From Acidobacteriota bacterium (GTDB lineage: Bacteria > Acidobacteriota > Vicinamibacteria > Vicinamibacterales > UBA2999), in contig JADZCN010000114.1 of the NCBI GenBank assembly GCA_020851565.1, forward strand, positions 30,361 to 94,360: a stretch of DNA of 64,000 bases, written 5' to 3'. The position numbers and the translations under genes are program-made. Shown here one piece after another: positions 5,045-63,015 of the stretch (the first letter of the stretch is position 1; each line of letters begins with the position of its first letter). The notes beneath the pieces were generated by a model, which searched no databases, was not told where the DNA came from, and saw only the letters and a program-made list of their open reading frames with translations.

Positions 5045-5047
5045 CCC

Positions 5048-17766: not shown

Positions 17767-17778
17767 GGGCAAGACTAC

Positions 17779-17915
17779 CATTGAGCGATTGCTGATTGGC
17801 GATTGGGCGATTCACTGAAGATCGAGCGATTGGGGCATTGGGCATTGAATCGGGCGATTGGGTGATTGCGGCATCGGGCGATTCGTTGCTGGCAGACGTC
17901 GGCCCGTCGTCGCCC
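17779..17915. repeat. GATTG/CAATC palindromic-element family, half copy (E1)
   Basis: CCATTGAGCGATTGCTGATTGGCGATTGGGCGATTC...GGGCATTGGGCATTGAATCGGGCGATTGGGTGATTGCGGCATCGGGCGATTCGTTGCTGGCAG. It is homologous to one arm plus the centre of the elements at 27847 and 31022. Confidence 0.85.
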
Positions 17916-22197: not shown

Positions 22198-22482
22198 CAG
22201 CGTGTGCTGGTAGCCGGCCGCGATGCGGCGCGCGGCAGGCGCGGGAGGCTGGGCGGAGACGAGGTGCGGAAGCGTGAAGAAGGAAGGGGGTGACCCGGTG
22301 TCACACCAAGGCAGACGGACGCAGGATCGTGAATTCCGCGGACGTGGCCCAAGGACCTGCCGAACTCCTGCCGCCGGCAGGCCGTCAGCGTCTCGGAAGT
22401 GCGGTCTTGTCGTCCAGGATGGTCAACAACCAGCCCGATCGACCACGCAGTGGAAGGAAACCGAATGCCCAATCACGACCGC

Positions 22483-24999
22483 TCACTCGTAGCGCAGCGC
22501 GCGTACAGGTTCCACCGCGGCAGCCCTTCGCGCGGGCAGATAGCCCGCGAGCGCGCCCACCAGGGCGAGCGCGGCGGCGGCCGCCAGCAGCGTGAGCGGG
22601 TCCGTGGGCGACAAGCCGAAGAGCTGCGAGGACACGACGCGGCTCAGGGCCAGCGCCGCGGGGATGCCGATCAGCACGCCGACGCCGGTGAGCACGGCCA
22701 CTTCCCGCAGCACCAGCCACACGACGCTGCCGCGCTCCGCCCCGAGCGCGATGCGGATGCCAATCTCCCGCGTGCGGCGCGCGACTGTGTAGGACATCAG
22801 GCCGTAGAGGCCGACCGCCGCCAGCAGCGTGGCCAGCAGGCCGAACGCCGCCGAGAGCACCGCCAGCATGCGCTCGGTGAACACGGCCTCGTCAATCGTC
22901 TGCTCCATCGTCGTGACGTTGTAGAGCGGCAGGCTGGCGTCGCGGCGGCCAACGGCGTCCCGGATTCGCTCGACGAGGCCGGCACGGCCCTCCGGCGTGG
23001 AGCGCACGTAGACCGTCATCCCCGTCAGCTCCGTGCTCTGCTGCAGCGGCGTGTAAGCGAACCGCCGGACCTGGTTGTCCTCCGTCGTCCCCTCGCGCAT
23101 GGTGCCGTGCAGCGAGTCCTTCACCACGCCCACGATCTCGATGGCGCCGGGGTCGTTCAGCACGCGCCAGCCGAAGCGGCGCCCGATGGGGTTCTCCGAC
23201 CCGAAGTAGTACCGCGCGAAGGTCTCGTTGACGACGGCGACGAGCGGCGCGCCCTCGACGTCCCTCGGCGTGAACTCGCGCCCCAGCAGCAGCGGCTGCC
23301 CCATGGTACGGAAGTAGTCCGGTCCCACCTCGTTGGTCCACGGGTTCATGTTCTCGTCGGGCTTCGTCTCGTACCCCTGCACCTGGATGGTGCGGCTGGA
23401 GATGCTGTCGGTGAGCACAGGCTCGGCTGCCATGGAGACACCGGCGACGCCGGTGACGGCCTGCAGATCCTGCTGCAAGGCCGCATAGAACTGCTTGATG
23501 CGCGCTTGCGAGTAGCCTGCCAGCTCGGGGCTGATGGCGAACGACACGAGGGAGGTGGCGTCGAAGCCCGGGTTCAGGTGCTTCAGGTTGTACAGGCTGC
23601 GCGCGAAGAGCCCCGCGCCCGCCACCAGCAGCATGGAGAGCGCCACCTGGGCCACCACCAGTCCCTTGCGCAGCCGTGCGTGCGCGCGTCCGCCACTGAG
23701 CGCCCCGGCCTCTTCACGGAGTGTGCGGTTCATGTCGGGCCTGGACGCCTGGAGTGCCGGAGCGAGCCCGAAGACCACCGCGGTGACGAGCGACACGGCC
23801 AGGGCGAAGAGGCCCACGCGGAGGTCCGGCGTGGTGGAGAGCATCCGCGTGGTCGAACCGGTCGACGGCAGCAGCCCCACCAGCAGCTCGCCCACCCAGA
23901 CCGACAGCACCAGCCCCACGGCGCCTCCGGCGAGCGACAGCAGCAGGCTCTCCAACAGCGCCTGGCGGACGATGCGGCCGCGGCTGGCGCCGAGCGCCAG
24001 GCGCACGCCGATCTCCTTCTGCCGGGCGGCGGCCCGCGCCACCAGCAGGCTCGCGACGTTTGCGCAGGCGATGAGCAGCACCATTCCCACCATGCCCATC
24101 AGCACGACCACCGGCGCGCTGAAGCCCTGCCGCAGTCCGGACAGGCCGCGCCCCGCCGGCTCCATCTCGATGCTCTTCGCGAGGAACCGCTCCTTGAAGA
24201 GCGCGCTGCCCCTGGCAAACCCAGGCACGGCCTCGAGGTCGTGCGCGTTGATCTGCTTGTAGAGCACGTCGAGCCGCGCGCGCGCCGCCTCGAGCTCGAG
24301 CCCGGGCTTCAGCCGCCCCACGATGTTCACGAACCGCGTCTGACGGTCGTCGAGGCCGTCCCAGGTGGGCGTGATCTGCGCCTTCATCGTCAGCGGCACG
24401 AACACATCCGGGCTGCTGAGCGCGACCACACCTGCAAAGCCCGCGGGCGCCACGCCAATCACGGTCATCGGCGTGGTGTTGATCGTCAGTGCCTGGCCGA
24501 GCACCTGGGGACTGCCCGCGAAGCGGCGCATCCAGTACGCGTGGCTCAGCATCATCACGGGGTGTCCCGCTCTCACGCGATCGTCGTCCGGCGACAAGGC
24601 GCGGCCGAGGGCAGGGCGGGCCCGCAGGACCTCGAAGGTGTTGCCGGAGACCATCTCTACGCTGACGCGCTCGGCCTGGCCGTTCTGCACCAGCGTGGCT
24701 GATGCGGGCGCTCGGGCCACGAGGCCGGAAAACACGTCGCTGCGGTCCCGCAGGTCCTGGTACATCGGGTACGAGAACGTCCGATCGTTCATCGTCCGCC
24801 CGCTGAAGGGCCCCGGGCCATCCAGCTGGACGAGCTCATCCGGCCGATCCACGGGCAGCATCCGGAGCATGAGCTGGTCCATCAACGAGAAGATGGCCGT
24901 GTTGGCGCCGATGCCGAGTCCCAGGGTGAGCACGACCACCAGCGTGAAGGCCGGGGCGTGGAAGAGAGTGCGCAGCGCGTATCGAAGATCGGTGAGCAT
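22483..24999 (-). CDS. MacB/FtsX-type duplicated orphan permease (ADOP-like ABC permease)
   Basis: 838 aa. N-terminus MLTDLRYALRTLFHAPAFTLVVVLTLGLGIGANTAIFS, two FtsX-like 4-TM modules each followed by a large periplasmic domain, and C-terminus PVRALRYE. No adjacent ATPase. Confidence 0.9.
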   Translation of the reverse strand: MLTDLRYALRTLFHAPAFTLVVVLTLGLGIGANTAIFSLMDQLMLRMLPVDRPDELVQLDGPGPFSGRTMNDRTFSYPMYQDLRDRSDVFSGLVARAPASATLVQNGQAERVSVEMVSGNTFEVLRARPALGRALSPDDDRVRAGHPVMMLSHAYWMRRFAGSPQVLGQALTINTTPMTVIGVAPAGFAGVVALSSPDVFVPLTMKAQITPTWDGLDDRQTRFVNIVGRLKPGLELEAARARLDVLYKQINAHDLEAVPGFARGSALFKERFLAKSIEMEPAGRGLSGLRQGFSAPVVVLMGMVGMVLLIACANVASLLVARAAARQKEIGVRLALGASRGRIVRQALLESLLLSLAGGAVGLVLSVWVGELLVGLLPSTGSTTRMLSTTPDLRVGLFALAVSLVTAVVFGLAPALQASRPDMNRTLREEAGALSGGRAHARLRKGLVVAQVALSMLLVAGAGLFARSLYNLKHLNPGFDATSLVSFAISPELAGYSQARIKQFYAALQQDLQAVTGVAGVSMAAEPVLTDSISSRTIQVQGYETKPDENMNPWTNEVGPDYFRTMGQPLLLGREFTPRDVEGAPLVAVVNETFARYYFGSENPIGRRFGWRVLNDPGAIEIVGVVKDSLHGTMREGTTEDNQVRRFAYTPLQQSTELTGMTVYVRSTPEGRAGLVERIRDAVGRRDASLPLYNVTTMEQTIDEAVFTERMLAVLSAAFGLLATLLAAVGLYGLMSYTVARRTREIGIRIALGAERGSVVWLVLREVAVLTGVGVLIGIPAALALSRVVSSQLFGLSPTDPLTLLAAAAALALVGALAGYLPARRAAAVEPVRALRYE

Positions 25000-25051
25000 G
25001 GGGCGGCCTCAACGGGTATCAGACGAAGAGGACGCCGTGGTGGTTGGGGAG

Positions 25052-25120
25052 GGTGAGACGTGAGAAGTGAGGCTATCCCTCCGTTCGTCCCTTGTCCCTG
25101 CCTTCGCTTCTCACCTCACC
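25052..25120. other. Interrupted stem-loop (GGTGAG..TGAGAAG / CTTCTCA.CTCACC) between the USP stop and the permease start
   Basis: GGTGAG (25052-57) pairs with CTCACC (25115-20), and TGAGAAG (25061-67) pairs with CTTCTCA (25107-13). The loop is ~39 nt and C/T-rich. A TGAGAAG-type stem also occurs at 32564-32595. Confidence 0.5.
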
Positions 25121-25134
25121 GATCCGCGCCCCAT

Positions 25135-25953
25135 CTAAGTTCTCGACGGCACCGCCAGGACAATGGCGTCCTTCGTCTTGAGCACCGCCGAGGCGATCTC
25201 GCCCGGAACGCCGTGGCCAGGCTCGCGCAGGCCCATCACGACCAGCCCGGCCTGCTCGGCCACTGCCGCCTGGTCGATTTCCTCGGCGACGGAGGCGCCA
25301 CGCCTGACCAGCACGCGGTCTGCCGGCGACGGGCCGAGGCCGGCCGTCCGCTCCTGGAGCGCCTTCTCCGCGTCGGCGTCGCTGGCTCCGCCGCCGGTCA
25401 CCGTCATGACGACCAGCGGCTGGCGTGCCAGGGCGGCCATCTGGCTGCCCAGGTCGAGCTGGGCCTGGTTGTGCTCGGTGAGGTCCACGGGGACGAGCAC
25501 GGTGCCGGGGTGCAGCTTCACCTCGCTCGCCGTCAGCGTGACGATGTCGCCGTGGCCGGGAGGCACGAGGAGCGTCGGCGTCTTCGTCAGCTCGAGGACC
25601 ATGGCGCTGGTGGAGCCGAGCAGCCAGCGCGACACGCCGGACTTGCCGTGCGTGCCGGTCACGATCAGGTCCGTGTCCTCGCGCGCCATCTCGAGGATGG
25701 CGTCCGCGGGCTGTCCCTGCGTGATACGCACGACGCGGATGCGGGGCTCGCCGAGATAGGCGGCGCCTGCAGGCAACGTGTCGCCGAGCAGGCCCTTGAT
25801 CGTGGCCTCCGCGGCGTGCGTGTCACCGCCGACGGCGGCGAGCACCGTGAGGCGGGCGCCGCAGGCGCCGGCCATGCCGGCGGCATGCTTCAGGACGCGC
25901 GGAGCGAGATCGGAGAAGTCCAGTGCGCAAAGAACCGAAGTGAACGGAGGCAT
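25135..25953 (-). CDS. Universal stress protein, tandem USP domains
   Basis: 272 aa with two USP-like halves: VLCALDFSDLAPRVLKHA...DLIVTGTHGKSGVSRWLLGSTS, and a second half ending VMGLREPGHGVPGEIASAVL. TAGAAT lies 6 nt upstream of the ATG. Confidence 0.8.
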   Translation of the reverse strand: MPPFTSVLCALDFSDLAPRVLKHAAGMAGACGARLTVLAAVGGDTHAAEATIKGLLGDTLPAGAAYLGEPRIRVVRITQGQPADAILEMAREDTDLIVTGTHGKSGVSRWLLGSTSAMVLELTKTPTLLVPPGHGDIVTLTASEVKLHPGTVLVPVDLTEHNQAQLDLGSQMAALARQPLVVMTVTGGGASDADAEKALQERTAGLGPSPADRVLVRRGASVAEEIDQAAVAEQAGLVVMGLREPGHGVPGEIASAVLKTKDAIVLAVPSRT

Positions 25954-25991
25954 GGCGACATTCTATCGATGGAGACGTGCCGGCACGCCGC

Positions 25992-26546
25992 TTATTCTCG
26001 CCCGGCCTCGATGAGCATGGGCTGGCCCAGCGCTTGTTCGATGGCACTGATGAGTTGGGCATCGTCCGCAGACACGAGACTCCCGAAGAACGCGCGCACG
26101 CGCCCATCGCGGCCGACGAGGTATTTCGCGAAGTTCCATGCCGGCGCTTCGCCGGTGGAGGTGAGGAAGTCGTAGACGGCGGACCGGCCCTCCCCACGCA
26201 CGTGCCCCTTCCCGAACACGGGGAATGTCACGCCGCGCGCATCACACACCTGCTGGATCCCCGCATCGTCGTTCGGCTCCTGCCAGAAGTCGTCGCTGGG
26301 GAAGGCGAGGATGACCAGACCGCATTCGCTGGCCACGTTCACGACCAGTGCCACGTGGCCGCTGTAGGCGGAGAGGGCCATGTTGTGGCCCTGGCCGTCG
26401 CGGGCCGTGAGATCGTAGAACGACGCAGCCGCGGGTGTCGAAACAGGCCTCACGATGGACAGCCGCCAGGCGATGGCGCCAGCGACGGCGATAGCGGCCG
26501 CCACGAGCGCCAGGGACGTCTGAAGGAAAGGCCGTCTGGACACCAT
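25992..26546 (-). CDS. Glutathione peroxidase-like protein (degenerate; internal deletion)
   Basis: C-terminal 184 aa of ORF 25992..27002, from the ATG at 26546, with a TM/signal segment. GPx motifs are VNVASECG (Cys codon TGC), LAFPSDDF and WNFAKYLVGRDG. About 19 residues normally found between CG and the LxFP strand are absent. Confidence 0.7.
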   Translation of the reverse strand: MVSRRPFLQTSLALVAAAIAVAGAIAWRLSIVRPVSTPAAASFYDLTARDGQGHNMALSAYSGHVALVVNVASECGLVILAFPSDDFWQEPNDDAGIQQVCDARGVTFPVFGKGHVRGEGRSAVYDFLTSTGEAPAWNFAKYLVGRDGRVRAFFGSLVSADDAQLISAIEQALGQPMLIEAGRE

Positions 26547-26588
26547 GGACCCGCTGGTTGGACGCAGGGCCGACAGGCGTGGATCCGG

Positions 26589-26708
26589 GTGCGGGCGGGT
26601 GCGAACAGGTGCGAACAGGTGCGGGCGGGTGCGGGCGGGTGCGGGCGGGTGCGGGCGGGTGCGAACGGGTGCGGGCGGGTGCGAACAGGTGCGGGCGGGT
26701 GCGAACAG
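26589..26708. repeat. 12 x 10-bp tandem array with two unit states (GTGCGGGCGG / GTGCGAACAG)
   Basis: Read directly. Unit order is G A A G G G G A' G A G A. It lies in the divergent gap between starts 26546 (-) and 26728 (+). The same family occurs at 54643-54807 and, reverse-complemented, at 40505-40560. Confidence 0.95.
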
Positions 26709-26727
26709 GTGACGTGAGGGGAGGCAG

Positions 26728-27195
26728 GTGATGGTCACGCGACGAGAGGTGGTGACGGCGGGCGTGATGGGGGTGCTGTCCACGTCGGCTGCGGCGGAAG
26801 CGGCGGGCGGAGGGGGTGGCGGCGTGGCGGCCGCCTCGGCGCAGTCGGCAGAGGCGATCAGCGCCGAAGCCCTCCGGGGCATCCTGCGCGAGCTGCAGGA
26901 GGTGCGCGAGGCGCTCGACCTCACGCTCCGGCAGAACTCGCTGGCCATCGGCGCCATTGCTCCCATCCGCCGGGCGTTCGAGTTGTTCCTGCGCTCGAAC
27001 ATGAAGTACCCCGACTATTGCGAGATCGGCCACGGCGTCTTCACCGAGCTCTACGACTGGCACGTGAAGCACCGGCAGCCCATCGAGGTGCAGCGCGTGG
27101 AGGGCCGCATGGCCATCCGCTTCATGTTCACGTGGATGCTGCTCAGGCCGGAGCAGGATCCGAACTTCGTCGGGATTGCCTACGATCGGGGATGA
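26728..27195 (+). CDS. Hypothetical protein with possible twin-arginine signal
   Basis: 155-aa ORF (GTG 26728 or ATG 26731) preceded by GGGGAGG. N-terminus VTRREVVTAGVMGVLSTSAAAEAA. No family recognised. Confidence 0.55.
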   Translation: MMVTRREVVTAGVMGVLSTSAAAEAAGGGGGGVAAASAQSAEAISAEALRGILRELQEVREALDLTLRQNSLAIGAIAPIRRAFELFLRSNMKYPDYCEIGHGVFTELYDWHVKHRQPIEVQRVEGRMAIRFMFTWMLLRPEQDPNFVGIAYDRG

Positions 27196-27200
27196 GCGGG

Positions 27201-27243
27201 CGCAGGGTGCAAGGGTGCAAGGGTGCAGGGGTGCAAGGGTGCC
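27201..27243. repeat. About 5 x 8-bp array GGGTGCAA/GGGTGCAG
   Basis: CAGGGTGCAAGGGTGCAAGGGTGCAGGGGTGCAAGGGTGCC. Same unit family as 56576-56642. Confidence 0.9.
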
Positions 27244-27274
27244 TGGATCCCGGGTCCCAAAGTAAGCTGTCCCG

Positions 27275-27853
27275 ATGCTTCCCGCTGAACTGCAGGACTT
27301 GATCGACCAGGTCGACGCCGCCGAGGCCGACGCGCGGACGTTGGTCCGCGGGCTCGACGACCGCCAGGCGAACTGGCAGCCGGATGGTGGTCAAGCGTGG
27401 AGCATCGCGCAGTGCCTGGACCACCTCGCGCGCATGAACAGCTTCTACGTCGAGGCCGTCCTGCCGCGCGTGCGGCGGGCGGCCGAGGGCTCGGTGGCGC
27501 CCTTCGAGTCGCTGGCGCCGACGTGGCTCGGGCGCAAGTTCGTCGAGTCGATGGAGCCGCCCGTGACGCGCCGCTTCAAGGTCCCTGCCGCGCGCGTGGC
27601 GCCTGCCTCCGACATGCCGGTCGCCGACGCCCTGGCCGCCTTCGGCAACAGCCACACCCGCTACCGCGAGCTGGTGCGGCTGTGCGCGGGCCTCGATCCG
27701 AACCGCGTCCGCGTGCCCAACCCGTTCTTCAAATGGGTGTGGATGAGGGCCTCCACGGTGCTCCTCGTCATTCCCGCGCACGACCGTCGCCACCTCTGGC
27801 AGGCTCGCCGGGTTCTCGCGCGGCCCGACTTCCCGAGCACCGCTGTCCATTGA
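27275..27853 (+). CDS. DinB family protein
   Basis: 192 aa. WSIAQCLDHLARMNSFY and IPAHDRRHLWQARRVL His-containing helices are typical of the DinB/DinB_2 four-helix bundle. The stop TGA (27851-53) lies inside the CCATTGAGCG terminus of the repeat element. Confidence 0.75.
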   Translation: MLPAELQDLIDQVDAAEADARTLVRGLDDRQANWQPDGGQAWSIAQCLDHLARMNSFYVEAVLPRVRRAAEGSVAPFESLAPTWLGRKFVESMEPPVTRRFKVPAARVAPASDMPVADALAAFGNSHTRYRELVRLCAGLDPNRVRVPNPFFKWVWMRASTVLLVIPAHDRRHLWQARRVLARPDFPSTAVH

Positions 27854-28129
27854 GCGATTGCAGATTGGTGATTGAGTGATTCATTGGGTGATTGGCGATT
27901 GACGCATCGGGCATTCGGATTGAGTGATTCAGGGATTGAGCGATTGCCTCATTGGGGGCTGAGAGCCGACGGCCAGTGACAGCGTGGTCGCCGGGCGGCG
28001 ACGAATCGCCGGATGCCCCAATCACCCAGTCGCCCAATCCAATGCCCAATGCCCAATCGTCAATCACCCAAGGAATCGCTCAATCAGCAATCGGCAATCG
28101 CCAATGGACGCGCGACGGCTCACAGCACC
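27847..28129. repeat. GATTG/CAATC palindromic element, full copy (E2)
   Basis: Left arm CCATTGAGCGATTGCAGATTGGTGATTGAGTGATTCATTGGGTGATTGGCGATTG. Right arm CAATCGTCAATCACCCAAGGAATCGCTCAATCAGCAATCGGCAATCGCCAATGG (ends 28107). A conserved flank ACGCGCGACGGCTCACAGCACC follows. Confidence 0.9.
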
Positions 28130-28337
28130 GTCGATGTCCCAGCCCTCGCGCAGCCTCCTGCGCCCGATATTCGGCGGTCCCGGCCCGGCGCGGCCCCGAA
28201 GTGCCGAACCTCCGGCGGCCAGGCGGCGCGCCCCCCTGGGACATGCGCCAGCGAGCATGACCGCCGTGGCACGATCATTGATTTGACGACGGCGGAGCCG
28301 CGCGCTCGGTCCCTGGTGCTCGACCAGGAGGAATGTC

Positions 28338-31028
28338 ATGCGCGCCCCCTCGTTGTCATTCGTTCGTGCCGTCGTGGCTGTGTCTATCGCCGCGTTTGGA
28401 ATCGCCACGCCTGCACATGGCCAGCAGGGGTGGTCGAGCAGCGTGGTGACGCTGTCGGTGCCGCAGGTGGACCACGACGGGTTGCAGGTCTGGCTTCGAA
28501 AGCGGCCGGCGCTGGCGGCCGATCCGGCCGGCAATGTCGTCGCCGTCTGGGTCCAGCCGGTCTCCGCGTTCGCCGCCGTCGTCCAGGCCGCGCGGTATTC
28601 GGCGGCAGCCCGCGCATGGGGAGCGCCGGTCACGCTTTCGGGGGCAGGTATCCCCACCGAACCGCGGGTCGTGGTCGACAGCGGAGGAAACGCGCTCGCC
28701 GTGTGGGGGAGGTTCAATGGTCCGGTGCAGTCCGCGCGCTACCTGCGGGACTCCAATGCATGGACCGGCCCGATCGAGGTCGATTCAGGCATCTTGTTTG
28801 CGGACGAGCTGGATCTGGTCGCCGACGCCGCGGGCAATGCGTTCGCCGTCTGGGTGCAAAGAAACGCGTCGGCAGACGTCGTCCCAGGGGTCTATGCGGC
28901 ACGTTTCAGCGCCGGCAGCAACGCGTGGGCGACTGTCGTCCCGATGTCGGCCACGGACGCGTGGCAGCCACGGATTGCCGTGGATGCCTCCGGCAATGCC
29001 ACAGTGCTCTGGGTTGCCCGGGTGGGCACCAGCCTGGACTGGGTGGTTCACGCGCGCCGCTATGTGGCCGGCGCCGGAGCCTGGACCGAGGCGGTCGAGC
29101 TCTCGTCCGGTGGCAGCGCCGCGCCGTTTGGTATCAACCTTCGCATCGTCTCCGATGCGACGGGGCAGATGACCGCAGCGTGGTCGCTGTCTCAGTTCGA
29201 TGAAATGGAGGACGTGACCTACACGACGGTTCAGGCGCGTCGCTACACTCCGGCGACTGGGTCGTGGGGGCCGGTGGTCGACCTGTCGGCTGCCGGGGGA
29301 GATGCGCGCTGGCCGACGCTGGCGGCCGACGGGACTGGCGGTGCCTTTGCCGCCTGGCTCCAGTACTCACCGGACGGCGACGTCGCGCGGGTCCAGGCGA
29401 CTCGCTTCTCGGCTGATGCCGGAGGCTGGAGCGCACCGGTCGATCTCGGTCCGCCTTGTACGTGGGGACGACCCGGTACTTTCCCCGAAGTCGTCGCCGA
29501 CCACGAGGGCAATGCGTTTGTGATCTGGGTCCAGACCTTCGAGGAGCCGGTGCCCGGCAGCGCGCTCCAGGCGGCCCGATACGTGGCAGCTACTGCATCC
29601 TGGGGCGCCGCCGTCATCCTCGAGGTGGGCGCCCCCGAGCATCAGACCGCGGTCGATTCGTTGGGCAACGTCGTCGTCGTCTGGTCCTACGGTGCGCGTG
29701 CGGCCAGGTTCGTGGTGACGGCGGGCGCGTGGACGCCATCCGTCACCGTCGGGCCGGGACCGTCGGTGTTGGCCATTGCCCCGGGGATGGCCGTCGATCC
29801 GCTGGGCAACGTGACGCTGGCCTGGAACCGGTTCGACAGGTTCACCGAGGTATCGGACATCGCGAGCAACCGTTGGGTGGCCGCGCCATTGGCCCCCACC
29901 ATCGGCGTCGTCAGCCCGGGGGCCGGCTCGCTGAGCGTGGCGTTCTCGCCGCCGCCCACTTCGGAACCGTTGTTCGCTCCGACCAACTACGCGTACTCGG
30001 TCGATGACGGCGCGACGTGGCACCTGCGAGATCCGGCGTCCGCGGCGTCGCCGGTGTTGATCGCCGGGCTCACGGACTTCGTTCCCTGCAGGGTGCGGCT
30101 GGTCGCGATCAATCGCGCCGGCCCTGGACTGGCATCTTCGTCCGTTCTGGCGGTGCCACATCCGGTTCCGTTGGCGCCACGAGAGCTGACGGCCACATCG
30201 ATTGTCGGCAACACCGTCACGTTGTCATGGATCGCTCCGCAAGGCGGCATCCCGCCGACGGGGTACGTCCTCGAAGGCGGCGTTCACCCCGGCGAGGTCC
30301 TGGCCAGCATTCCCACGGGGAGCATCGCACCGCAATTCACGTTCGAGGCGCCGGCAGGCGCGTTCTACGTACGCGTCCATGCGGTTGCCGGCACGCTGCG
30401 CAGCGCACCCTCCAACGAGATTCAAATCGTCGTCCGCGTAGCAGCGCCACCATCGGCGCCGGTCAACCTCCGCGGCCTCGTCAACGGCTCCGACGTCGCG
30501 CTGTCGTGGACGAACACGTTCGACGGCGGTGCGCCCACGAGCCTGTGGCTGAGCGTCACTGGCGCGATCGAGACGGCGTTGCCGCTACCGATGGCAGAGA
30601 CCTTCACGTACGCGAACGTGCCGCCGGGCACTTACACCCTCCGCGTCGTCGCGGCAAATGCGGTGGGGACCAGCCCGTTCTCGAACGCGGTGACATTGAC
30701 TTTCCCTGGACCGTGTACGGGCGTGCCGGGCGTGCCGGTCAATCTCCAGACGTGGAAGGTCGGCAGCACGATCTTCGCGAGCTGGGACGCCCCGGTGAGT
30801 GGGCCGGCGGCGACGGGGTACGGCGTGTTCGTCTCCGGCGCGTATGTCGGTGGCTTCACGACGACCGCGCGCACGCTCTCGGGTGTGGCGGGGCCCGGTG
30901 AGTACGTCATCAGCGTGGCCGCGACCAACGCGTGCGGGACGGGGCCGGCGACGGCGTCGCAAACGGTTGTCCTTCCGTGGCTCGCGCCGTCACGAACAGG
31001 CGTCATGCGCGCTCGCGGCGTCCATTGA
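28338..31028 (+). CDS. Secreted protein: nine ~45-aa repeats (probable beta-propeller) followed by 3-4 fibronectin type III-like domains
   Basis: 896 aa; AGGAGGA SD; signal peptide ending ATPAHGQQ. Repeats have the form D..GN(A/V)xxVW..(15-25 aa)..ARY/ARF....AW..PV.L, nine times. The C-terminal half has FN3-like modules (LSVAFSPP.., VTLSWIAP.., VALSWTNT.., IFASWDAP..). Confidence 0.75.
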   Translation: MRAPSLSFVRAVVAVSIAAFGIATPAHGQQGWSSSVVTLSVPQVDHDGLQVWLRKRPALAADPAGNVVAVWVQPVSAFAAVVQAARYSAAARAWGAPVTLSGAGIPTEPRVVVDSGGNALAVWGRFNGPVQSARYLRDSNAWTGPIEVDSGILFADELDLVADAAGNAFAVWVQRNASADVVPGVYAARFSAGSNAWATVVPMSATDAWQPRIAVDASGNATVLWVARVGTSLDWVVHARRYVAGAGAWTEAVELSSGGSAAPFGINLRIVSDATGQMTAAWSLSQFDEMEDVTYTTVQARRYTPATGSWGPVVDLSAAGGDARWPTLAADGTGGAFAAWLQYSPDGDVARVQATRFSADAGGWSAPVDLGPPCTWGRPGTFPEVVADHEGNAFVIWVQTFEEPVPGSALQAARYVAATASWGAAVILEVGAPEHQTAVDSLGNVVVVWSYGARAARFVVTAGAWTPSVTVGPGPSVLAIAPGMAVDPLGNVTLAWNRFDRFTEVSDIASNRWVAAPLAPTIGVVSPGAGSLSVAFSPPPTSEPLFAPTNYAYSVDDGATWHLRDPASAASPVLIAGLTDFVPCRVRLVAINRAGPGLASSSVLAVPHPVPLAPRELTATSIVGNTVTLSWIAPQGGIPPTGYVLEGGVHPGEVLASIPTGSIAPQFTFEAPAGAFYVRVHAVAGTLRSAPSNEIQIVVRVAAPPSAPVNLRGLVNGSDVALSWTNTFDGGAPTSLWLSVTGAIETALPLPMAETFTYANVPPGTYTLRVVAANAVGTSPFSNAVTLTFPGPCTGVPGVPVNLQTWKVGSTIFASWDAPVSGPAATGYGVFVSGAYVGGFTTTARTLSGVAGPGEYVISVAATNACGTGPATASQTVVLPWLAPSRTGVMRARGVH

Positions 31029-31297
31029 GCGATTGCCGATTGGTGATTGAGCGATTCATTGGGTGAGTGGTGATTGAAGCATCGACGCATTCGGATTGAA
31101 GATTGACCGATTCCGCGATTGCGGCATTCGCGGCCGGCGGCCACGGACAGCGCGGTCGCCTGGCAGCGACGAATCGCCCGATGCCCCAATCACCCGATCG
31201 CTCAATCCAATGCCCAATGCCCAATCGCCAATCACCCAATGAATCGCTCAATCCGCAATCGGCAATCGCCAATGGACGCGCGAGGGCTCACAGCACC
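31022..31297. repeat. GATTG/CAATC palindromic element, full copy (E3)
   Basis: Collinear with E2 over its whole length at roughly 85% identity by eye, including the centre ..GACAGCGCGGTCGCCTGGCAGCGACGAATCGCCCGATGCCCCAATCACCC and the flank ACGCGCGAGGGCTCACAGCACC. It contains the stop of 28338..31028 (TGA 31026-28) and the stop of 31288..32550 (TCA 31288-90). Confidence 0.9.
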
Positions 31298-32550
31298 CGC
31301 CCGAGCCTCTCCAACCCTTCTTCGATTCTGGCGAGGTCGTGCACCAACGGCCCGAAGGAGATACGCACGCCGTTGGTGAGTGACGGCCCGAAGCCGCGGC
31401 CCGGGACCACCAGGACACCCGTTGCCTTCAGCGCCTCGGGCACGAAAGCCTCGGCGTCGCGGCCGACGTCCACCACGGTGTAGAGGCCGCCGGCCGGCAC
31501 CAGGCGCGGGCGCCGCAGGTGCCGGTCCACCGCGTCGATGGTCACCTGCGCGGCCTTCTTGTAGAGGGCATTGGCGTGGTCCACGTAGCGCTGCAGCGAG
31601 CCGCTCGGGATGGCACGCTTCAGGTACCGCGCCATCGTCATCTGCTCCAGCGTGTCCGGGCAGAGGATGCTGCACTGCTGCACGCGCTCGATGGCGTCGA
31701 TCACGCCCGGCGCGGCTTCAATCCAGCCAAGCCGCCGGCCCAGCCCGCGCGCCCACTTCGAGTTGGAGTGGATGCCGATGAGGTTCGGGTGGTCCGCCGG
31801 CGACCACGCGTAGTACGAGGGATACGGCGCGAAGTACTGGCACTTGTAGGCGAAGTCGATGGCCAGCCACGCGCCCGCGTCGCGCGTCTGCTCGAGCATG
31901 GCTTCGGCCAGCGCCTGCGGGACGATCTGGCTCGTGGGGTTGTCGGGCGCGCCGAAGAGCACGAGCTTCGGCTTGTGCTGGTCGAAGAGGCGGCGGAACT
32001 CGCGCGCCGTTCCCTCGGCATCCGCCTCGGGCAGGTACGTCCACGTCGCCGGATCGACGACGCGCAGCCGGACGATATTCGCGCCGGGCGTGGCGAAGGC
32101 GAGCTGGCCTTCGTAGTTGGCGTAGGTCGGGTCCAGCAGCATCACCGTGTCGCCGGGATCCACGAGCGTCCGGAACAGGTCGTGCGTCAGCTGCGTGCTG
32201 CCGATGCCGAGGGCGACGTGCTCCGCGCCCAGGCGCGGGACCCCGAAGAGCGCCGCCTCGAACTGCGCGATCTGCTCGCGGCATTCCATGTCGCCGAGCG
32301 TGGCGGTGTAGCCGCCGCTCTTGTGGAAGAGCGCCGGGTCGCTGGCCACTTCGACATAGGCCTGACGGAACTCCTCCGGCGCCTCGTGGTTCACCCAGCC
32401 GCCGCCGAACGAAATCACGTCGTCCGGGTTCAGGCCCATCGCGACGATGTTCTGGCGCTCCGCCATCTTCATGATCTGGCGGATGGGCGAGGGCGAGGAC
32501 ATCTGGGCGCGGACGAGTGACGAGAGTGCGGGCGCGGTGACCGATGGCAT
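31288..32550 (-). CDS. Class I/II pyridoxal-phosphate-dependent aminotransferase
   Basis: ORF 31288..32601. PLP-lysine context HSNSKWARGLGRRLGW. The start is set to the ATG at 32550 because TATGAT lies 7 nt upstream and a 9-bp hairpin occupies 32564-32595. ATG 32562 and 32601 are alternatives. Confidence 0.8.
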   Translation of the reverse strand: MPSVTAPALSSLVRAQMSSPSPIRQIMKMAERQNIVAMGLNPDDVISFGGGWVNHEAPEEFRQAYVEVASDPALFHKSGGYTATLGDMECREQIAQFEAALFGVPRLGAEHVALGIGSTQLTHDLFRTLVDPGDTVMLLDPTYANYEGQLAFATPGANIVRLRVVDPATWTYLPEADAEGTAREFRRLFDQHKPKLVLFGAPDNPTSQIVPQALAEAMLEQTRDAGAWLAIDFAYKCQYFAPYPSYYAWSPADHPNLIGIHSNSKWARGLGRRLGWIEAAPGVIDAIERVQQCSILCPDTLEQMTMARYLKRAIPSGSLQRYVDHANALYKKAAQVTIDAVDRHLRRPRLVPAGGLYTVVDVGRDAEAFVPEALKATGVLVVPGRGFGPSLTNGVRISFGPLVHDLARIEEGLERLGRVL

Positions 32551-32563
32551 GCCCGTGATCATA

Positions 32564-32595
32564 AGTGAGAAGAGCCGGAGGCGGCCCTTCTCACT
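32564..32595. other. Perfect 9-bp stem-loop AGTGAGAAG-N14-CTTCTCACT
   Basis: Read directly. It lies just upstream (minus-strand sense) of the aminotransferase start. The motif is related to the 25052-25120 stem. Confidence 0.6.
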
Positions 32596-32610
32596 TCTCA
32601 CCGTACACGT

Positions 32611-32701
32611 CTGCCTCCTGCTCCCTGACCCCTGCTCCCTGCTCCCTGCTCCCTGATCCCTGCTCCCTTATGGCTGATCCCTGATCCCTGATCCCTGATC
32701 C
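32611..32701. repeat. 8-bp unit array CTGCTCCC / CTGATCCC (about 10 units)
   Basis: CTGCCTCCTGCTCCCTGACCCCTGCTCCCTGCTCCCTGCTCCCTGATCCCTGCTCCC..GATCCCTGATCCCTGATCCCTGATCC. It is the reverse complement of the GGGATCAG array at 62385-62420. Confidence 0.95.
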
Positions 32702-32702
32702 G

Positions 32703-33737
32703 CTACGGCACGATGGTCCAGCGCGTGGAGTTCCGGCGCCTGGTCTGGTCGCTGAGGTCAATCTCCACCTGCAGCGTGTGGTCGCCCGCAGCCAGCGCGC
32801 CGGCGGGCACCGGGCAGCTGAAGGTCTGGCCTTCGCTGCTCGATCCGCCCTGGAAGCACGCGAGCAGGAACGCGCTCACGTCGGCGCCGTCCAGCCACAC
32901 CCGCCCACCGGTGAGGTAGGTGCCGGCCGGCGGCTGGATGGCGAGGACCAGCTCGAAATCGGCACTGCGGAAGATGCGCCCCGATTCGGGCGTGATGGCC
33001 AGCCCCTCGGTCGCGACGGGCTCGCCGTAGATGAAGTCGTCCATCACGACGAGGTCCAGGCTGCCGGCTTCATCCGGGCCCGGGGCCGCGTTGCCGCTGA
33101 CGATGCGGACCTTCGCGACGAGCTCGCCCGCGTCGAACGACACGCCCAGGAACGAGAGGGTGTCGTCGCCGGCGACCCAGGGCACGAACTGCTCGTACAG
33201 CAGGGTGCCGTCAGGCGCGTAGAACTCCATCTTCGTGCTGAACTCCCCGTCGACGTCGGTGAACACGGCGCCGAAGCCGGTGACGGCCCCCGCGACGGCC
33301 GGATTGCCGGGCACGTGGAAGACGGTCTCCGACACGTTGCTGTTGAGCGCCGTGAAGATACGCGGGCTGCTGAAGGACGCAAACAGGTTCGGGTAGGTTG
33401 CGTTCAGCTCGGCGAACTCGGGCGTCGGCTGCCCGCTGATCGAGAAGCCGCTGCCGGGGGTGACGAACGTGGCGCCGCGGTTCTGGAAGGTCGTCATCGG
33501 CGTGGGGAAGAGGCCCACCGGCGCCGTCGCGCCTCCGCCGTCCCAGTTGATCTCCCGGCGCCCGCCGGGCTGCGATCCGGCGGTGTTGCCGTTGTTCGGG
33601 TTGCCGAGGTCCGCCCGGAACTGATCCACGGCCGCCTGGATGGCCGCGGCATTGGCACCTGCCGCCTCCCGCACCACCGGGCCCGCCAGGGCCGGGCTGG
33701 CACACAACAGTCCTGCAACGATCACGAAAGCCTTCAT
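32703..33737 (-). CDS. Secreted hypothetical protein
   Basis: In-frame part of ORF 32703..33812 from the ATG at 33737, with AAGGAGA SD. Signal peptide MKAFVIVAGLLCASPALAG. No family recognised. Confidence 0.6.
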   Translation of the reverse strand: MKAFVIVAGLLCASPALAGPVVREAAGANAAAIQAAVDQFRADLGNPNNGNTAGSQPGGRREINWDGGGATAPVGLFPTPMTTFQNRGATFVTPGSGFSISGQPTPEFAELNATYPNLFASFSSPRIFTALNSNVSETVFHVPGNPAVAGAVTGFGAVFTDVDGEFSTKMEFYAPDGTLLYEQFVPWVAGDDTLSFLGVSFDAGELVAKVRIVSGNAAPGPDEAGSLDLVVMDDFIYGEPVATEGLAITPESGRIFRSADFELVLAIQPPAGTYLTGGRVWLDGADVSAFLLACFQGGSSSEGQTFSCPVPAGALAAGDHTLQVEIDLSDQTRRRNSTRWTIVP

Positions 33738-33925
33738 CGAGTCTCCTTTGCCGGGAATCCGACGGACCTGCCCACAGCCTCGAGTGGCTGGTCCCGCAGT
33801 CGCTTCCCGCAACCCGTCGATACGGAGGCGGGCGGGCGCGAGTCGTCAGCAAGGCGTAAGTGATCCGTGAAGATTCGGTGAGAGGCGCGACAACATTCCG
33901 CCACGGGCACCCGTCTAAGCCGCGT

Positions 33926-36373: not shown

Positions 36374-36402
36374 CGGGCGGGATTGGGGCATTGGTCATTC
36401 AG

Positions 36403-38844: not shown

Positions 38845-38872
38845 GGGCGGGGGCGGCCGGGGGGGGCGGCGC

Positions 38873-38967
38873 TCATTGATGATTGGTGATTGGGGGATTG
38901 AGCGATTCGGCTGTCGCGCCGAGGAATCGTCCGATGCGGCAATCACCAATCTACAATCGCTCAATGG
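38873..38967. repeat. GATTG/CAATC palindromic element, short copy (E4)
   Basis: TCATTGATGATTGGTGATTGGGGGATTGAGCGATTCGG..CCGATGCGGCAATCACCAATCTACAATCGCTCAATGG. The right arm contains TACAAT (38952-57) and the ATG (38964) of the next gene. Confidence 0.85.
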
Positions 38968-39476
38968 GTACGGCGCCGGCCACCACAGCCATCCGCCAGT
39001 TGCGCGAGCACGGCATTCCCTTCAGCGAGCACCCCTATCGGTATGAAGAGCGGGGGGGCACCCGTGTGTCTTCCCGCGAGCTGGGGGTGGACGAGCACGC
39101 GGTCATCAAGACGCTCGTGATGCAGGACGAGCGCCGGCAGCCGCTCATCGTCCTCATGCACGGCGACCGCGAGGTCTCCACGAAGAACCTCGCCCGCCAG
39201 ATCGGCGCGAAGGCGGTGGAGCCGTGCGACCCCGCCGTGGCGGAGCGGCACACCGGCTACCAGGTGGGCGGCACCTCGCCGTTCGGCACGCGGAAGGCGC
39301 TGCCAGTGTTCGTGGAGCGCAGCATCCTGGACCTGCCGCGGATCTACATCAACGGCGGCCGGCGCGGGTTCCTCGTCGCGCTCGCGCCCGGGGATCTGGC
39401 GCGCGTGCTGTCGCCCACGGCGGTGGACGTCGCGCTGGAGCACCGGGCGGGGGAGCCGGGAGGCCGCCGGAGCTGA
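38964..39476 (+). CDS. ybaK: YbaK/EbsC-family Cys-tRNA(Pro)/aminoacyl-tRNA deacylase
   Basis: In-frame part of ORF 38883..39476 from the ATG at 38964. Motifs HAVIKTLVM, HGDREVSTKNLARQIG and TGYQVGGTSPFG are typical of YbaK trans-editing domains. Confidence 0.8.
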   Translation: MGTAPATTAIRQLREHGIPFSEHPYRYEERGGTRVSSRELGVDEHAVIKTLVMQDERRQPLIVLMHGDREVSTKNLARQIGAKAVEPCDPAVAERHTGYQVGGTSPFGTRKALPVFVERSILDLPRIYINGGRRGFLVALAPGDLARVLSPTAVDVALEHRAGEPGGRRS

Positions 39477-40503: not shown

Positions 40504-41381
40504 GCGACGATCCGCGCCCGCCCGCACCTGACGGCACCCGCCCGCACCCGCCCGCACCTGTCCGATACGTCTGCGGCCATGGGCCGCGGGAGATCGAGCG
40601 GCTCGCCCTGCAGGCCCGCATCTACGAGGCGGTGACCAGGCGCCTTCTCTCACGTGCCGGCATCGGCGCCGGGTTCCACGTCGTGGACCTGGGATGCGGC
40701 GGCGGCGACGTGAGCCTGCTCGCCGCCGAAGCCGTGGGTCCGACAGGCTCGGTGCTGGGCGTGGATCGCTCGGCAGACGCCGTCGCGGCGGCCACGGCCC
40801 GCGCCCGCGAGGCCGGGCACGCCCACGCCCGCTTCATCGTCGCCGAGCTCGACGCCTGGGCCCCGGCCACGCCCGTGGACGCCGTCGTCGGCCGGTTCGT
40901 CCTGATGCACCAGCGCGATCCGGTGGCGCTCGTGGCGCGCGCACGCCGCTGGGTCCGGCCCGGCGGCGTCGTCGCCTTCGTCGAGTCCGACAACGCCTGG
41001 TGCCAGCCCGGCCGACACTCGCGCCCGCATTCGCCCACCTATCACCGCATCGTCCGGTCGTGGCAGGGCATCCTCGGCGCGGCGGGAGCGCATCTCGATA
41101 TGGGCTCCCGCCTCGGAGAGGGCTTCGTTGCCGCGGGACTGCCGGACCCGTCCGAGGAGGTGGACGTGCCCACGACGGGCGATCCGGCGTCACCCATCTT
41201 CCGGTTCGCGGTGGAGAGCCTGCGCAGCATGCTGCCGCTGGCGGCCGCCTCCGGCGTGCCCGTGCCGGCGGCGGCCGAGGCCGACAGCCTCGAAGCCGCA
41301 CTTCGGGCCGAGGTGGCCGCGCTCGACGGCACCCTGAGCGCGCCACCCGCCCATGCGGTGTGGGCCCGCGTGCGCGGCTAG
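40500..41381 (+). CDS. Class I SAM-dependent methyltransferase
   Basis: In-frame part of ORF 40185..41381. Motif I is VVDLGCGGGDVS. The start is proposed at GTG 40500, overlapping the upstream stop (GTGA). The first ~20 codons are encoded by GCACCCGCCCGCAC repeat units, so the start is uncertain. Confidence 0.7.
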   Translation: MSDDPRPPAPDGTRPHPPAPVRYVCGHGPREIERLALQARIYEAVTRRLLSRAGIGAGFHVVDLGCGGGDVSLLAAEAVGPTGSVLGVDRSADAVAAATARAREAGHAHARFIVAELDAWAPATPVDAVVGRFVLMHQRDPVALVARARRWVRPGGVVAFVESDNAWCQPGRHSRPHSPTYHRIVRSWQGILGAAGAHLDMGSRLGEGFVAAGLPDPSEEVDVPTTGDPASPIFRFAVESLRSMLPLAAASGVPVPAAAEADSLEAALRAEVAALDGTLSAPPAHAVWARVRG

Positions 41382-43172: not shown

Positions 43173-43287
43173 AACGTCGCCGTCGGATTCCTGCCAGGCT
43201 GGTCATTGTCGATGGCCGAGCTCTTCGCGGAACGGTGACGGTCCGGGGATGCTGCCCGGCGCGCAGCTGCGGTAGACTCGCCGCACC

Positions 43288-62784: not shown

Positions 62785-62800
62785 GCACGGAGCCCGGCGT

Positions 62801-62980
62801 CCATTGACGATTGCCAATTGACGATTGGGTGATTCATTGGGCGATCGGGCGATTGAGCCAAGGCGGCATTTGGATTGGTTCAATGCGTCAATGGCCCATT
62901 GCGCCAATCCGAATGCCCCAATGCCCAATCGCTCAATCACCCAATGAATCGCTCAATCACCAATTGGCAATCATCAATGG
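62801..62980. repeat. GATTG/CAATC palindromic element, full copy (E5)
   Basis: Left arm CCATTGACGATTGCCAATTGACGATTGGGTGATTCATTGGGCGATCGGGCGATTG. Right arm CAATCGCTCAATCACCCAATGAATCGCTCAATCACCAATTGGCAATCATCAATGG. It starts 17 nt after the stop of 62032..62784. Confidence 0.9.
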
Positions 62981-63015
62981 ACACCTCCTCCGGCAACCTG
63001 TCGCCGCGTGCCGCT

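What the first reader, a model, noticed from the sequence alone, without database searches (positions are those of the whole stretch)
27847..31297. A single 2.7-kb secreted-protein gene is bracketed by two direct full-length copies of the palindromic element
E2 (27847-28129) and E3 (31022-31297) lie in the same orientation and are collinear over ~270 bp. The collinearity includes the non-palindromic centre and the 22-nt right flank ACGCGCGA(C/G)GGCTCACAGCACC. Between them lies only the gene 28338..31028 (nine-repeat propeller plus FN3 domains) with its own strong SD. Direct repeats of this size flanking one gene suggest a cassette that can be excised or duplicated by homologous recombination. 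Alternatively, the element may duplicate together with adjacent sequence. No transposase is present.
Basis: partly seen in the sequence, partly recalled or inferred. Interest (0 to 1): 0.6.

Follow-up and report, generated by a model that had tools for sequence, protein, structure and literature searches.

The report
Dispensable gene framed by duplicated palindromes
Two direct copies of a long intergenic hairpin repeat really do frame one secreted-protein gene, and related genomes that lack exactly this gene but keep one hairpin suggest that ordinary host recombination between the copies removes the gene and keeps the copies alike; this is not a new mobile system.

Summary
E2 (27845-28129) and E3 (31020-31297) are same-orientation, collinear copies, 86% identical. 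Each is a ~260-nt hairpin. Between them lie only a 208-nt leader and an 896-aa secreted gene (nine repeats plus FN3 domains). The identity runs 22 nt past the palindrome, across the stop codon of the convergent aminotransferase.

Five related Vicinamibacterales lineages share this locus. The gene is present in the window (W) and in relative A. W and A are as diverged in the gene (86% nt) as in the flanking genes. The gene is absent in C (sister of W) and B (sister of A); each keeps one element. D has neither gene nor element.

My reading is an old ~300-bp duplication of a resident palindrome plus its flank, framing a dispensable gene. The gene was lost at least twice, in register with the repeats. 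Gene conversion homogenised the repeats in the W/C lineage and overwrote the aminotransferase's last codon.

No transposase or integrase was found among ~40 window proteins. The two deletion junctions differ. Distant homologues of the gene lack flanking elements. So this is host recombination on REP/MITE-like repeats, not a mobile cassette.

I found no description of the element family: GATTG-repeat arms, 45-296 nt at one orthologous site, stop codons in nearly every frame.

The parts
27275..27853 (+). DinB_2-family gene. Its TGA stop (27851-27853) lies inside the element terminus GTCCATTGA.
   Evidence: Pfam PF12867, E = 1e-16; sequence; orthologues in L004, L009, L019, L027.
27845..28109 (+). 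E2: upstream copy of the palindromic element (GTCCATTG...CAATGGAC). The arms are degenerate GATTG(N2-3) repeats.
   Evidence: (dG -174.5, z -11.5).
28108..28129 (+). Flank F at E2: a 22-nt non-palindromic copy of the aminotransferase 3' end, including a TCA (reverse of stop TGA) at 28120-28122.
   Evidence: F occurs once in the GTDB genome of relative C, at the aminotransferase end.
28130..28337 (+). Leader of the secreted-protein gene, with Shine-Dalgarno AGGAGG at 28326-28331. It is 75% identical to the leader in relative A.
   Evidence: It is not a detectable aminotransferase remnant.
28338..31028 (+). 896-aa secreted protein: signal peptide, nine GNxxxVW beta repeats and FN3 domains. Its stop TGA (31026-31028) lies inside the E3 terminus. 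The ORF is 18 codons longer than in relative A (878 aa), whose TAA stop lies about 40 nt before the element.
31020..31277 (+). E3: downstream copy of the palindromic element, orthologous to the solo elements of relatives.
   Evidence: (dG -173.8, z -12.2).
31276..31297 (+). Flank F at E3: spacer, aminotransferase stop (TCA 31288-31290) and its last two codons.
31288..32601 (-). Class I/II aminotransferase, convergent with the 896-aa gene. Its C-terminus is ...GRVL*, against ...GRVLH*/GRVLY* in relatives A, D and B.
   Evidence: Pfam PF00155; homologues; 3' ends read.
17776..17900 (+). E1: left arm and centre only of a family element. The orthologue in relatives is a complete hairpin.
38872..38968 (+). 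E5: short (97-nt) family hairpin downstream of a MacB/FtsX permease gene.
62799..62982 (+). E4: 184-nt family hairpin between convergent genes. It has no GC-rich centre and no flank F.

Best explanation
**Element.** E is a member of a dispersed family of long intergenic hairpin repeats. They are REP/MITE-like. The arms are built of GATTG(N2-3) units and the ends are GTCCATTG/CAATGGAC. One copy is resident between the 3' ends of the convergent DinB and aminotransferase genes.

**Origin of the pair.** In the common ancestor of the sampled lineages W, C, A and B, a 2.9-kb segment (leader plus secreted-protein gene) became installed. Its installation was accompanied by a direct duplication of about 300 bp: the whole palindrome plus 22 nt of its right flank, including the aminotransferase stop codon.

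**Later history.** Since then the two copies have behaved as substrates of ordinary host recombination.
1. In the W/C lineage they were homogenised by gene conversion. The tract ran through flank F and overwrote the last codon of the aminotransferase.
2. The intervening gene was deleted at least twice. In C the product is the one expected from E2 x E3 recombination. In B the junction is a CCCG microhomology 10-11 nt upstream of both copies.

In A the upstream copy decayed to about 109 nt.

**Shown:** the duplication including the flank, the presence/absence pattern, the vertical divergence of the gene, the junction sequences, and the retained pairing of the hairpin.

**Inferred:** the direction of the events (loss rather than gain), gene conversion, and RecA- or slippage-type mechanisms.

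**Inferred only from position and sequence:** the elements may act as 3'-end hairpins (terminator, mRNA stabiliser, or ORF stop trap). They abut or contain the stop codons of neighbouring genes. They carry stops in nearly all frames. The region has no canonical terminator.
For: **Duplication includes non-element flank.** F is 21/22 identical between E2 and E3, and 22/22 between W_E3, C_E and A_E2. The F pattern hits the GTDB genome of C once only.

**Phylogeny from flanking genes.** W-C are 92-94% identical, A-B 93-95%, W-A 83-89%, and D about 81-88% to all.

**Gene states.**
- W: present.
- A: present (L004/L005, two independent metagenomes).
- C: absent.
- B: absent (five contigs, one from NCBI GCA_036795065.1).
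- D: absent, and without an element.

**Vertical descent.** The gene is 86.3% identical between W and A, the same as the flanks.

**Signature in C.** C aligns to W 24191-28129 and to W 31016-32563, with a 302-nt overlap equal to one repeat unit.

**Homogenisation.** Where W_E2 and W_E3 differ, C agrees with E2 about 15 times and with E3 about 16 times, interleaved. So the two copies were identical at about the W/C split.

**Gene conversion.** A 3-nt deletion removing the last aminotransferase codon is shared by the E2 flank in W and A. At the aminotransferase end it is found only in W and C. A, B and D keep the codon.

**Junction in B.** B reads GACTTCCCG|CTCGGCG... compared with A's DinB end ...TTTCCG|AGCACC and A's pre-E3 sequence ...GCCCG|CTCGCGGCG.

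**Family background.** Non-orthologous copies are 55-70% identical, against 86% for E2-E3.

**Hairpin retained.** 94% of cells are paired. Nine pairs carry double changes against 4.7 in shuffles (3/500).

**No recombinase.** None found in the window.

**Stops and terminators.** Stop codons occur in nearly all frames of the arms. There are no canonical terminators in 27000-32000.
Against: - C is a single low-coverage short-read MAG contig. A repeat-collapsed assembly cannot be excluded without reads.
- Loss versus gain is decided by parsimony on five lineages. Recombination between lineages could blur that tree.
- B's junction is outside the detectable repeat and carries 12 unexplained extra nucleotides. 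So it is not simple homologous recombination.
- C's left arm is closer to W_E3 (91%) than to W_E2 (85%). That fits a crossover only at the extreme left, or later divergence of W_E2.
- F is more conserved between W and A (22/22) than the adjacent leader (75%), which neutral descent does not predict.
- How the original duplication arose is unknown.
- No expression or 3'-end data exist for the proposed hairpin function.
Confidence: 0.7

Rival explanations
1. Gain rather than loss. The one-element state (C, B) is ancestral. The gene, with its own element copy, was inserted or imported by homologous exchange from other strains into the W and A lineages separately. The locus is then an insertion polymorphism kept in the population by recombination through flanking homology.
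For: - Junction signatures are symmetric: microhomology deletion and insertion with a 4-nt duplication (CCCG) look alike.
- More distant relatives lack the gene (L012, L013, L016, L018, L027).
- The gene-bearing allele is rare among the database contigs recovered. Close gene896 homologues formed only two clusters, against dozens of aminotransferase orthologues.
- C's left arm is closest to W_E3.
Against: - It needs two gains at the same nucleotide positions with the same leader and flank F.
- W-A divergence of the gene (86%) and leader (75%) is as large as that of the flanks. So there was no recent transfer between the sampled lineages.
- C's aminotransferase end carries the 3-nt deletion that otherwise marks the E2 flank. 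That is most simply explained if C's ancestor had E2+F.
Confidence: 0.17
2. A true mobile cassette. The palindromes would be recombination sites, either integron-attC-like folded single strands or the ends of a composite MITE-flanked unit. An unlinked site-specific recombinase or transposase would excise and insert element plus gene as a unit.
For: - The architecture repeat-gene-repeat with solo repeats at empty sites resembles attC-cassette-attC.
- The elements are hairpins with conserved termini.
- A second gene indel in this window abuts another family copy.
Against: - No integrase or transposase among ~40 window proteins.
- The junctions in B and C are at different positions.
- The repeat unit includes 22 nt of a neighbouring gene, not just the element.
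- The gene is found only at this locus. Its 40%-identical homologues have no flanking elements.
- No target-site duplications around the family copies I inspected.
- No viral relatives of the gene.
Confidence: 0.06
3. Coincidence. Two independently transposed copies of an abundant intergenic repeat happen to occupy neighbouring intergenic regions.
For: - The family is dense: 5 copies in 64 kb here and 4 in 17 kb in L009.
- By my own estimate, adjacency of two of five copies among an estimated ~55 gaps has a chance of about 30%.
Against: - The shared 22-nt non-element flank.
- E2-E3 identity is 86%, against a family background of 55-70%.
- The interleaved site pattern relative to C.
Confidence: 0.03
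4. Assembly artefact in the window, for example a misjoined repeat.
For: Short-read assemblies break at these repeats. The Logan contigs end inside E2 and E3.
Against: - The inner junctions are reproduced with 0 mismatches in contigs from 19 runs.
- The whole arrangement DinB-E2'-F-leader-gene-E3'-aminotransferase is present on two independent JGI contigs of relative A.
Confidence: 0.02

Closest known systems
REP / BIME / REPIN elements (repetitive extragenic palindromes; Bertels & Rainey 2011, PMC3116915; Di Nocera et al. 2013, PMC3733652)
   Same: - Non-coding, multi-copy, extragenic imperfect palindromes that fold as hairpins.
- They sit mostly downstream of genes and between convergent or co-directional ORFs.
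- They have been hypothesised to play roles in transcription termination and mRNA stabilisation (PMC3733652 abstract).
- From my own knowledge (not checked here): they are known substrates for recombination between copies, such as REP-mediated duplications in Salmonella.
   Different: - Much longer: 97-296 nt against 20-40 nt per REP.
- The arms are built of degenerate 7-8-nt GATTG tandem units.
- There is no unpaired GTAG or CGTC tag followed by an 8-9-bp stem and a 4-5-nt loop. CGTC occurs at the ends only as part of the paired terminus.
- No RAYT is seen in the window.
- Length changes six-fold at one orthologous site.
MITEs and Correia/NEMIS- or ERIC-type elements
   Same: Small, non-autonomous-looking repeats with terminal inverted repeats. 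They are intergenic, can supply stop codons or terminators to neighbouring genes, and show presence/absence between strains.
   Different: - No target-site duplication at the copies I inspected.
- The whole element is a palindrome, not only its termini.
- The site is orthologously conserved across roughly 82-94% nt-identical genomes, with in-situ growth and shrinkage rather than clean insertion or excision.
Integron gene cassettes (attC-gene-attC)
   Same: One promoter-proximal ORF is framed by imperfect palindromic sites. Loss of the ORF leaves one site.
   Different: - No IntI, attI or Pc.
- No R/L core boxes.
- The repeat includes part of a neighbouring gene.
- The junctions are not at a fixed position.
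- The gene carries its own 208-nt leader.
Direct-repeat (Campbell-type) duplication with homologous deletion and gene conversion
   Same: About 300-bp direct repeats, including unique flank, frame a unique segment. Relatives show the single-repeat product. The copies evolve in concert.
   Different: - The origin of the duplication is unknown.
- One of the two deletions (B) ends 10-11 nt outside the repeats at a 4-nt microhomology.

Membership tests
REP/REPIN (RAYT-mobilised) | Multi-copy extragenic imperfect palindrome forming a hairpin | tested here: met
   5 copies in the window and 4 in L009. Hairpin z = -11 to -12. Pairing retained: 94% of cells, 9 pairs with compensated changes.
REP/REPIN (RAYT-mobilised) | REP unit of 20-40 nt with an unpaired GTAG or CGTC head, an 8-9-bp stem and a 4-5-nt loop (PMC3733652) | tested here: not met
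   The ends read (G)CGTCCATTGAGCGATTG. CGTC is paired with GACG at the other end, about 260 nt away. There is no local 8-9-bp stem-loop.
REP/REPIN (RAYT-mobilised) | Cognate RAYT (Y1 transposase) gene flanked by the repeats | not testable with these tools
   None among ~40 window proteins. The whole genome is not available.
MITE | Terminal inverted repeats | tested here: met
   GTCCATTGAGCGATTG / CAATCGCYCAATGGAC are conserved in all full copies.
MITE | Target-site duplication flanking each copy | tested here: not met
   The flanks of E4, E5, L016_E, E2, E3 and B_E share no direct repeat.
MITE | Parent IS with the same termini | not testable with these tools
   No transposase in the window. 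No genome-wide search was possible.
Integron cassette / attC | Adjacent intI tyrosine recombinase with attI and Pc | tested here: not met
   No integrase domain in the window proteins.
Integron cassette / attC | Recombination at a fixed core site in each attC | tested here: not met
   The junction of the B deletion lies 10-11 nt upstream of the elements. The junction of C lies inside the element or flank F.
Direct-repeat-bracketed segment subject to homologous deletion and gene conversion | The repeats include unique flanking sequence, so they are a segmental duplication and not two insertions | tested here: met
   22-nt flank F is shared. F is single-copy in the GTDB genome of C.
Direct-repeat-bracketed segment subject to homologous deletion and gene conversion | Natural alleles with one repeat and no intervening segment | tested here: met
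   C and B. Caveat: C is a single MAG contig.
Direct-repeat-bracketed segment subject to homologous deletion and gene conversion | Concerted evolution of the two copies | tested here: met
   E2-E3 are 86% identical against 80-81% to the orthologue in C. The site pattern is interleaved. The aminotransferase end carries E2-flank characters.
Intrinsic (rho-independent) terminator | Short GC-rich stem followed by a T-run | tested here: not met
   0 terminator-like sites in 27000-32000. The elements lack T-runs.

The most novel reading that the evidence does not exclude
The GATTG palindromes are active hot spots. They would nucleate both the capture and the loss of large secreted-protein genes by a transposase-independent route. 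On capture the whole palindrome plus flank would be duplicated, for example by staggered cleavage at an extruded cruciform or hairpin followed by fill-in, or by an unlinked recombinase acting on folded single strands. The repeat would thus work as a chromosomal 'docking site' for accessory genes in Vicinamibacterales.

Two indels of this kind in one 64-kb window are compatible with this reading: gene896 between E2 and E3, and a 4.5-kb RCC1-repeat gene replacing the right arm of E1. So is the in-register B junction.
Probability: 0.1. Interest if true: 0.7.

Novelty: new variant of a known kind. Interest (0 to 1): 0.4.

Why it matters
**A worked natural example.** It shows how abundant intergenic palindromes shape gene content in an uncultured, globally common soil and sediment clade.
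- A ~300-bp duplicated hairpin turns one secreted-protein gene into a dispensable unit.
- That unit has been lost repeatedly.
- The same repeats rewrite the 3' end of a neighbouring housekeeping-type gene by gene conversion.

**A practical warning.** Short-read assemblies break or may collapse at these repeats. Accessory genes framed by them end up on orphan 3-kb contigs, so they can be missed in MAG-based pangenomes.

**A repeat family worth a systematic survey.** I found no description of it. Its arms are tandem GATTG units, it grows and shrinks at orthologous sites, and it is rich in stop codons. This is not a new mechanism of mobility.

Tried and rejected
- **Leader as aminotransferase remnant.** I tested whether the 208-nt leader is a decayed aminotransferase 3' end, which would imply a ~530-bp duplication. 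DNA and translated alignments are no better than shuffles. Rejected.
- **Duplication extending left of the palindrome.** Identity there is 11/21, not above the GC-rich background. Only the palindromic GGCGTCC matches. Not supported.
- **Clean crossover point in C.** The site pattern is interleaved, so none is visible.
- **Rfam.** No family reaches its gathering score anywhere in the window.
- **Metagenome scan with a DinB alignment.** Only 2 loci were returned because the patterns were too degenerate.
- **Viral collections.** The terminal motif gives two chance hits in low-GC phage coding DNA. There are no relatives of the gene.
- **Distant homologues of the gene (about 40%).** They lie in other contexts without elements and say nothing about this locus.
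- **CGTC-REP membership.** Considered because the ends read CGTCC. Rejected on unit architecture.
- **Literature searches.** I found no description of such repeats in Vicinamibacteria or Acidobacteriota.

Full report
**1. Observation**

The window is about 70% G+C. It encodes several MacB/FtsX permease paralogues. The closest named relatives are Vicinamibacterales MAGs.

At 27845-28109 (E2) and 31020-31277 (E3) lie two same-orientation, collinear copies of an imperfect palindrome with ends GTCCATTG...CAATGGAC. Each folds as one long hairpin: -174.5 and -173.8 kcal/mol, z = -11.5 and -12.2. The arms are degenerate GATTG(N2-3) repeats.

The identity continues for 22 non-palindromic nucleotides on the right (28108-28129 and 31276-31297, 21/22). 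Between the copies are only a 208-nt leader, an AGGAGG Shine-Dalgarno and ORF 28338-31028.

The ORF encodes a signal peptide, nine GNxxxVW beta repeats and FN3 domains. I could not verify that the repeats close into a propeller.

Three stop codons are embedded in the repeat unit:
- DinB's TGA (27851-53) and the 896-aa gene's TGA (31026-28) both lie in the terminus CCATTGA.
- The aminotransferase's stop (TCA at 31288-90 on the + strand) lies in flank F.

Logan contigs from 19 runs reproduce 28042-31058 without a mismatch and end inside the two elements.

**2. Family context**

Other copies in the window are:
- E1: 17776-17900, half an element;
- E5: 38872-38968, 97 nt;
- E4: 62799-62982, 184 nt.

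Non-orthologous copies are 55-70% identical. E2-E3 are 86% identical.

The copies I inspected all sit in short intergenic gaps, at or within about 30 nt of a gene's stop codon.

The arms carry stop codons in nearly every frame on both strands. The region has no canonical terminator.

Across seven copies, 94% of the paired cells are kept. Nine pairs carry changes on both sides, against 4.7 in shuffles.

Rfam has no match. No transposase, integrase or recombinase domain was found in ~40 window proteins.

**3. Comparative loci**

I call the window W. By nucleotide identity of DinB, the aminotransferase and the upstream permease:
- W and C are 92-94% identical;
- A and B are 93-95% identical;
- W and A are 83-89% identical;
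- D is about 81-88% identical to all of them;
- L012, L013, L016 and L018 are 82-86% identical.

| Lineage | Loci | State at the DinB-aminotransferase locus |
|---|---|---|
| A | L004/L005, two JGI metagenomes | DinB - short E2' (~109 nt) - F - leader - gene (878 aa, 86% nt to W) - full E3' - aminotransferase |
| B | L009, L010, L011 (NCBI GCA_036795065.1), L014, L028 | DinB - one element - aminotransferase; no gene |
| C | L019, MAG JBFWQE010000042.1 | DinB - one 296-nt element with F - aminotransferase; no gene |
| D | L027 | The two genes are 19 nt apart; no element; DinB ends GGCCACTGA, which resembles the element terminus |
| L016 | L016 | No DinB and no gene; a 180-nt family element abuts the aminotransferase |
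| L018 | L018 | No DinB and no gene; a 45-nt mini-hairpin abuts the aminotransferase |
| L012, L013 | L012, L013 | No element |

C aligns to W 24191-28129 and to W 31016-32563, with a 302-nt overlap equal to one repeat unit.

**4. Reading the history**

*Vertical descent and loss.* The gene is as diverged between W and A (86.3%; leader 75%) as the flanking genes are. It is therefore old and vertically inherited. Its absence from C and B, each the sister of a gene-bearing lineage, is best read as two independent losses.

*The flank.* F is the aminotransferase 3' end plus spacer. The F pattern occurs only once in the GTDB genome of C. So E2+F is a segmental copy of E3 plus the gene end, not a separate insertion.

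*Gene conversion.* A, B and D keep a final His/Tyr codon (GTG/GTA on the + strand) that is missing from the E2 flank in both W and A. At the aminotransferase end it is missing only in W and C. The simplest account is gene conversion from E2+F onto E3+F in the W/C ancestor, which changed ...RVLH* to ...RVL*.

*Timing.* Where W_E2 and W_E3 differ, C agrees with one or the other about equally often and in an interleaved pattern. So the two copies were identical at about the W/C split and have since diverged by roughly 7% each.

*The two junctions.*
- C has DinB's native end and the F-type aminotransferase end. This is the product expected from E2 x E3 recombination.
- B's junction is different. 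DinB is collinear with A up to GACTTCCCG. The sequence then continues with CTCGGCG..., which resembles the 10 nt preceding E3' in A (GCCCG|CTCGCGGCG), plus 12 extra nucleotides. The breakpoints therefore lie 10-11 nt upstream of both copies, at a CCCG microhomology.
- That is in register with the repeats but outside them. It suggests a repeat-aligned but illegitimate resolution.

**5. What it is not**

- It is not a chance neighbourhood of two transposed copies: the flank is shared and the identity is too high.
- It is not an assembly artefact in W.
- Nothing supports a site-specific or transposable cassette. There is no recombinase. The junctions differ. There are no target-site duplications. 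The gene occurs only at this locus. Homologues about 40% identical have no flanking elements. There is no viral link.
- The leader is not a detectable aminotransferase remnant.

**6. Caveats**

- C is one low-coverage SPAdes MAG contig, and a collapse of near-identical repeats cannot be excluded without reads. The B allele is safe: five contigs share a unique junction.
- Loss versus gain rests on parsimony over five lineages.
- F is more conserved between W and A (22/22) than neutral descent predicts.
- The polarity of spacer evolution is not fully settled. The A/B type resembles L016/L018, and the W/C type resembles D.
- The origin of the initial duplication is unknown.
- The hairpin's function is inferred from position only.

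**7. Comparison and verdict**

The elements work like REP/BIME/REPIN or MITE-type extragenic palindromes (PMC3116915, PMC3733652). They fail the defining features of tagged REPs and show no MITE target duplications. So I describe them as a new variant of that kind, not as a member of a named family.

The bracketed gene behaves as a segment between direct repeats under host recombination.

Interest is moderate (0.4). The mechanism is ordinary, but the case is cleanly documented, I found no description of the repeat family, and a second indel at E1 hints that these palindromes are hot spots.

Noticed in passing
window 17776-22480 (E1 and downstream); L004 4003-4262; L009 14490-14770: E1 is only the left arm and centre of a family element. 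In relatives A and B the orthologous site, between the peptidase-M1 start and the MacB stop, holds a complete ~260-nt hairpin. In W the right arm is replaced by about 4.5 kb encoding an RCC1 / CHB_HEX_C / Fn3_assoc repeat protein. This is a second large repeat-protein gene (signal peptide not checked) sitting at a GATTG element.
   Followed up: partly
L018 5883-5930; L016 8262-8441; L009 9293-9525; L004 12678-12912; L019 3749-4026; L027 6267-6285: The element at the aminotransferase 3' end varies in length between relatives: 45, 180, 233, 235, 258 (W) and 278 nt. It is missing in L027, where a 19-nt spacer remains and DinB ends GGCCACTGA, which looks like a retained element terminus. C has a private (CACCCAAT)n expansion in one arm only.
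   Followed up: partly
window 31288-31297; 30975-31028: Neighbouring ORF ends are rewritten by the element. The aminotransferase lost its last codon in W and C. The 896-aa ORF in W lost the TAA used in relative A and runs about 40 nt further to a TGA inside E3 (896 aa against 878 aa). In L016 the aminotransferase itself stops at a TGA inside the element terminus.
   Followed up: partly
window 780-1092, 5033-5197, 6537-6580, 26576-26745, 27196-27245, 40506-40562, 43118-43175, 47543-47672, 52372-52444, 53299-53433, 54620-54807, 58606-58719, 62193-62292: Many other intergenic regions hold short-period (7-15 nt) tandem arrays of unrelated unit sequence. Some are arranged as hairpins (780-1092, 54620-54807). 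Others occur as forward and reverse-complement arrays tens of kb apart (5033-5197 against 53299-53433; 26576-26745 against 40506-40562 and 54731-54807).
   Followed up: no
window 32564-33909 vs L019 5310-5415: Relative C also lacks the 345/369-aa hypothetical gene that lies between the aminotransferase and the downstream MacB permease in W, A and B. This is a second gene-content difference within 6 kb.
   Followed up: no
window 18354-18653 and 18793-19092: Two 300-nt segments, 94% identical and 439 nt apart, lie inside or next to the RCC1/CHB_HEX repeat-protein gene. Weaker 150-nt and 300-nt periodicities run through 19380-22095.
   Followed up: no
window 56820-58589: Direct repeats 56820-57082 / 57797-58059 (77%) and 57526-57591 / 58524-58589 (80%), spaced about 1 kb apart, suggest two tandem paralogous genes with Gly-rich tails.
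   Followed up: no
window 22483-24999, 33860-36373, 35584-38844, 44489-47155: At least four long MacB_PCD+FtsX permease paralogues lie in 64 kb. The loci of relatives show further copies and fragments around the same region.
   Followed up: no
L001-L003 (Logan contigs), window 28042-31058: In short-read assemblies the bracketed gene ends up on an orphan ~3-kb contig that stops inside both elements. Genes framed by these repeats would be easy to lose from binned genomes.
   Followed up: yes
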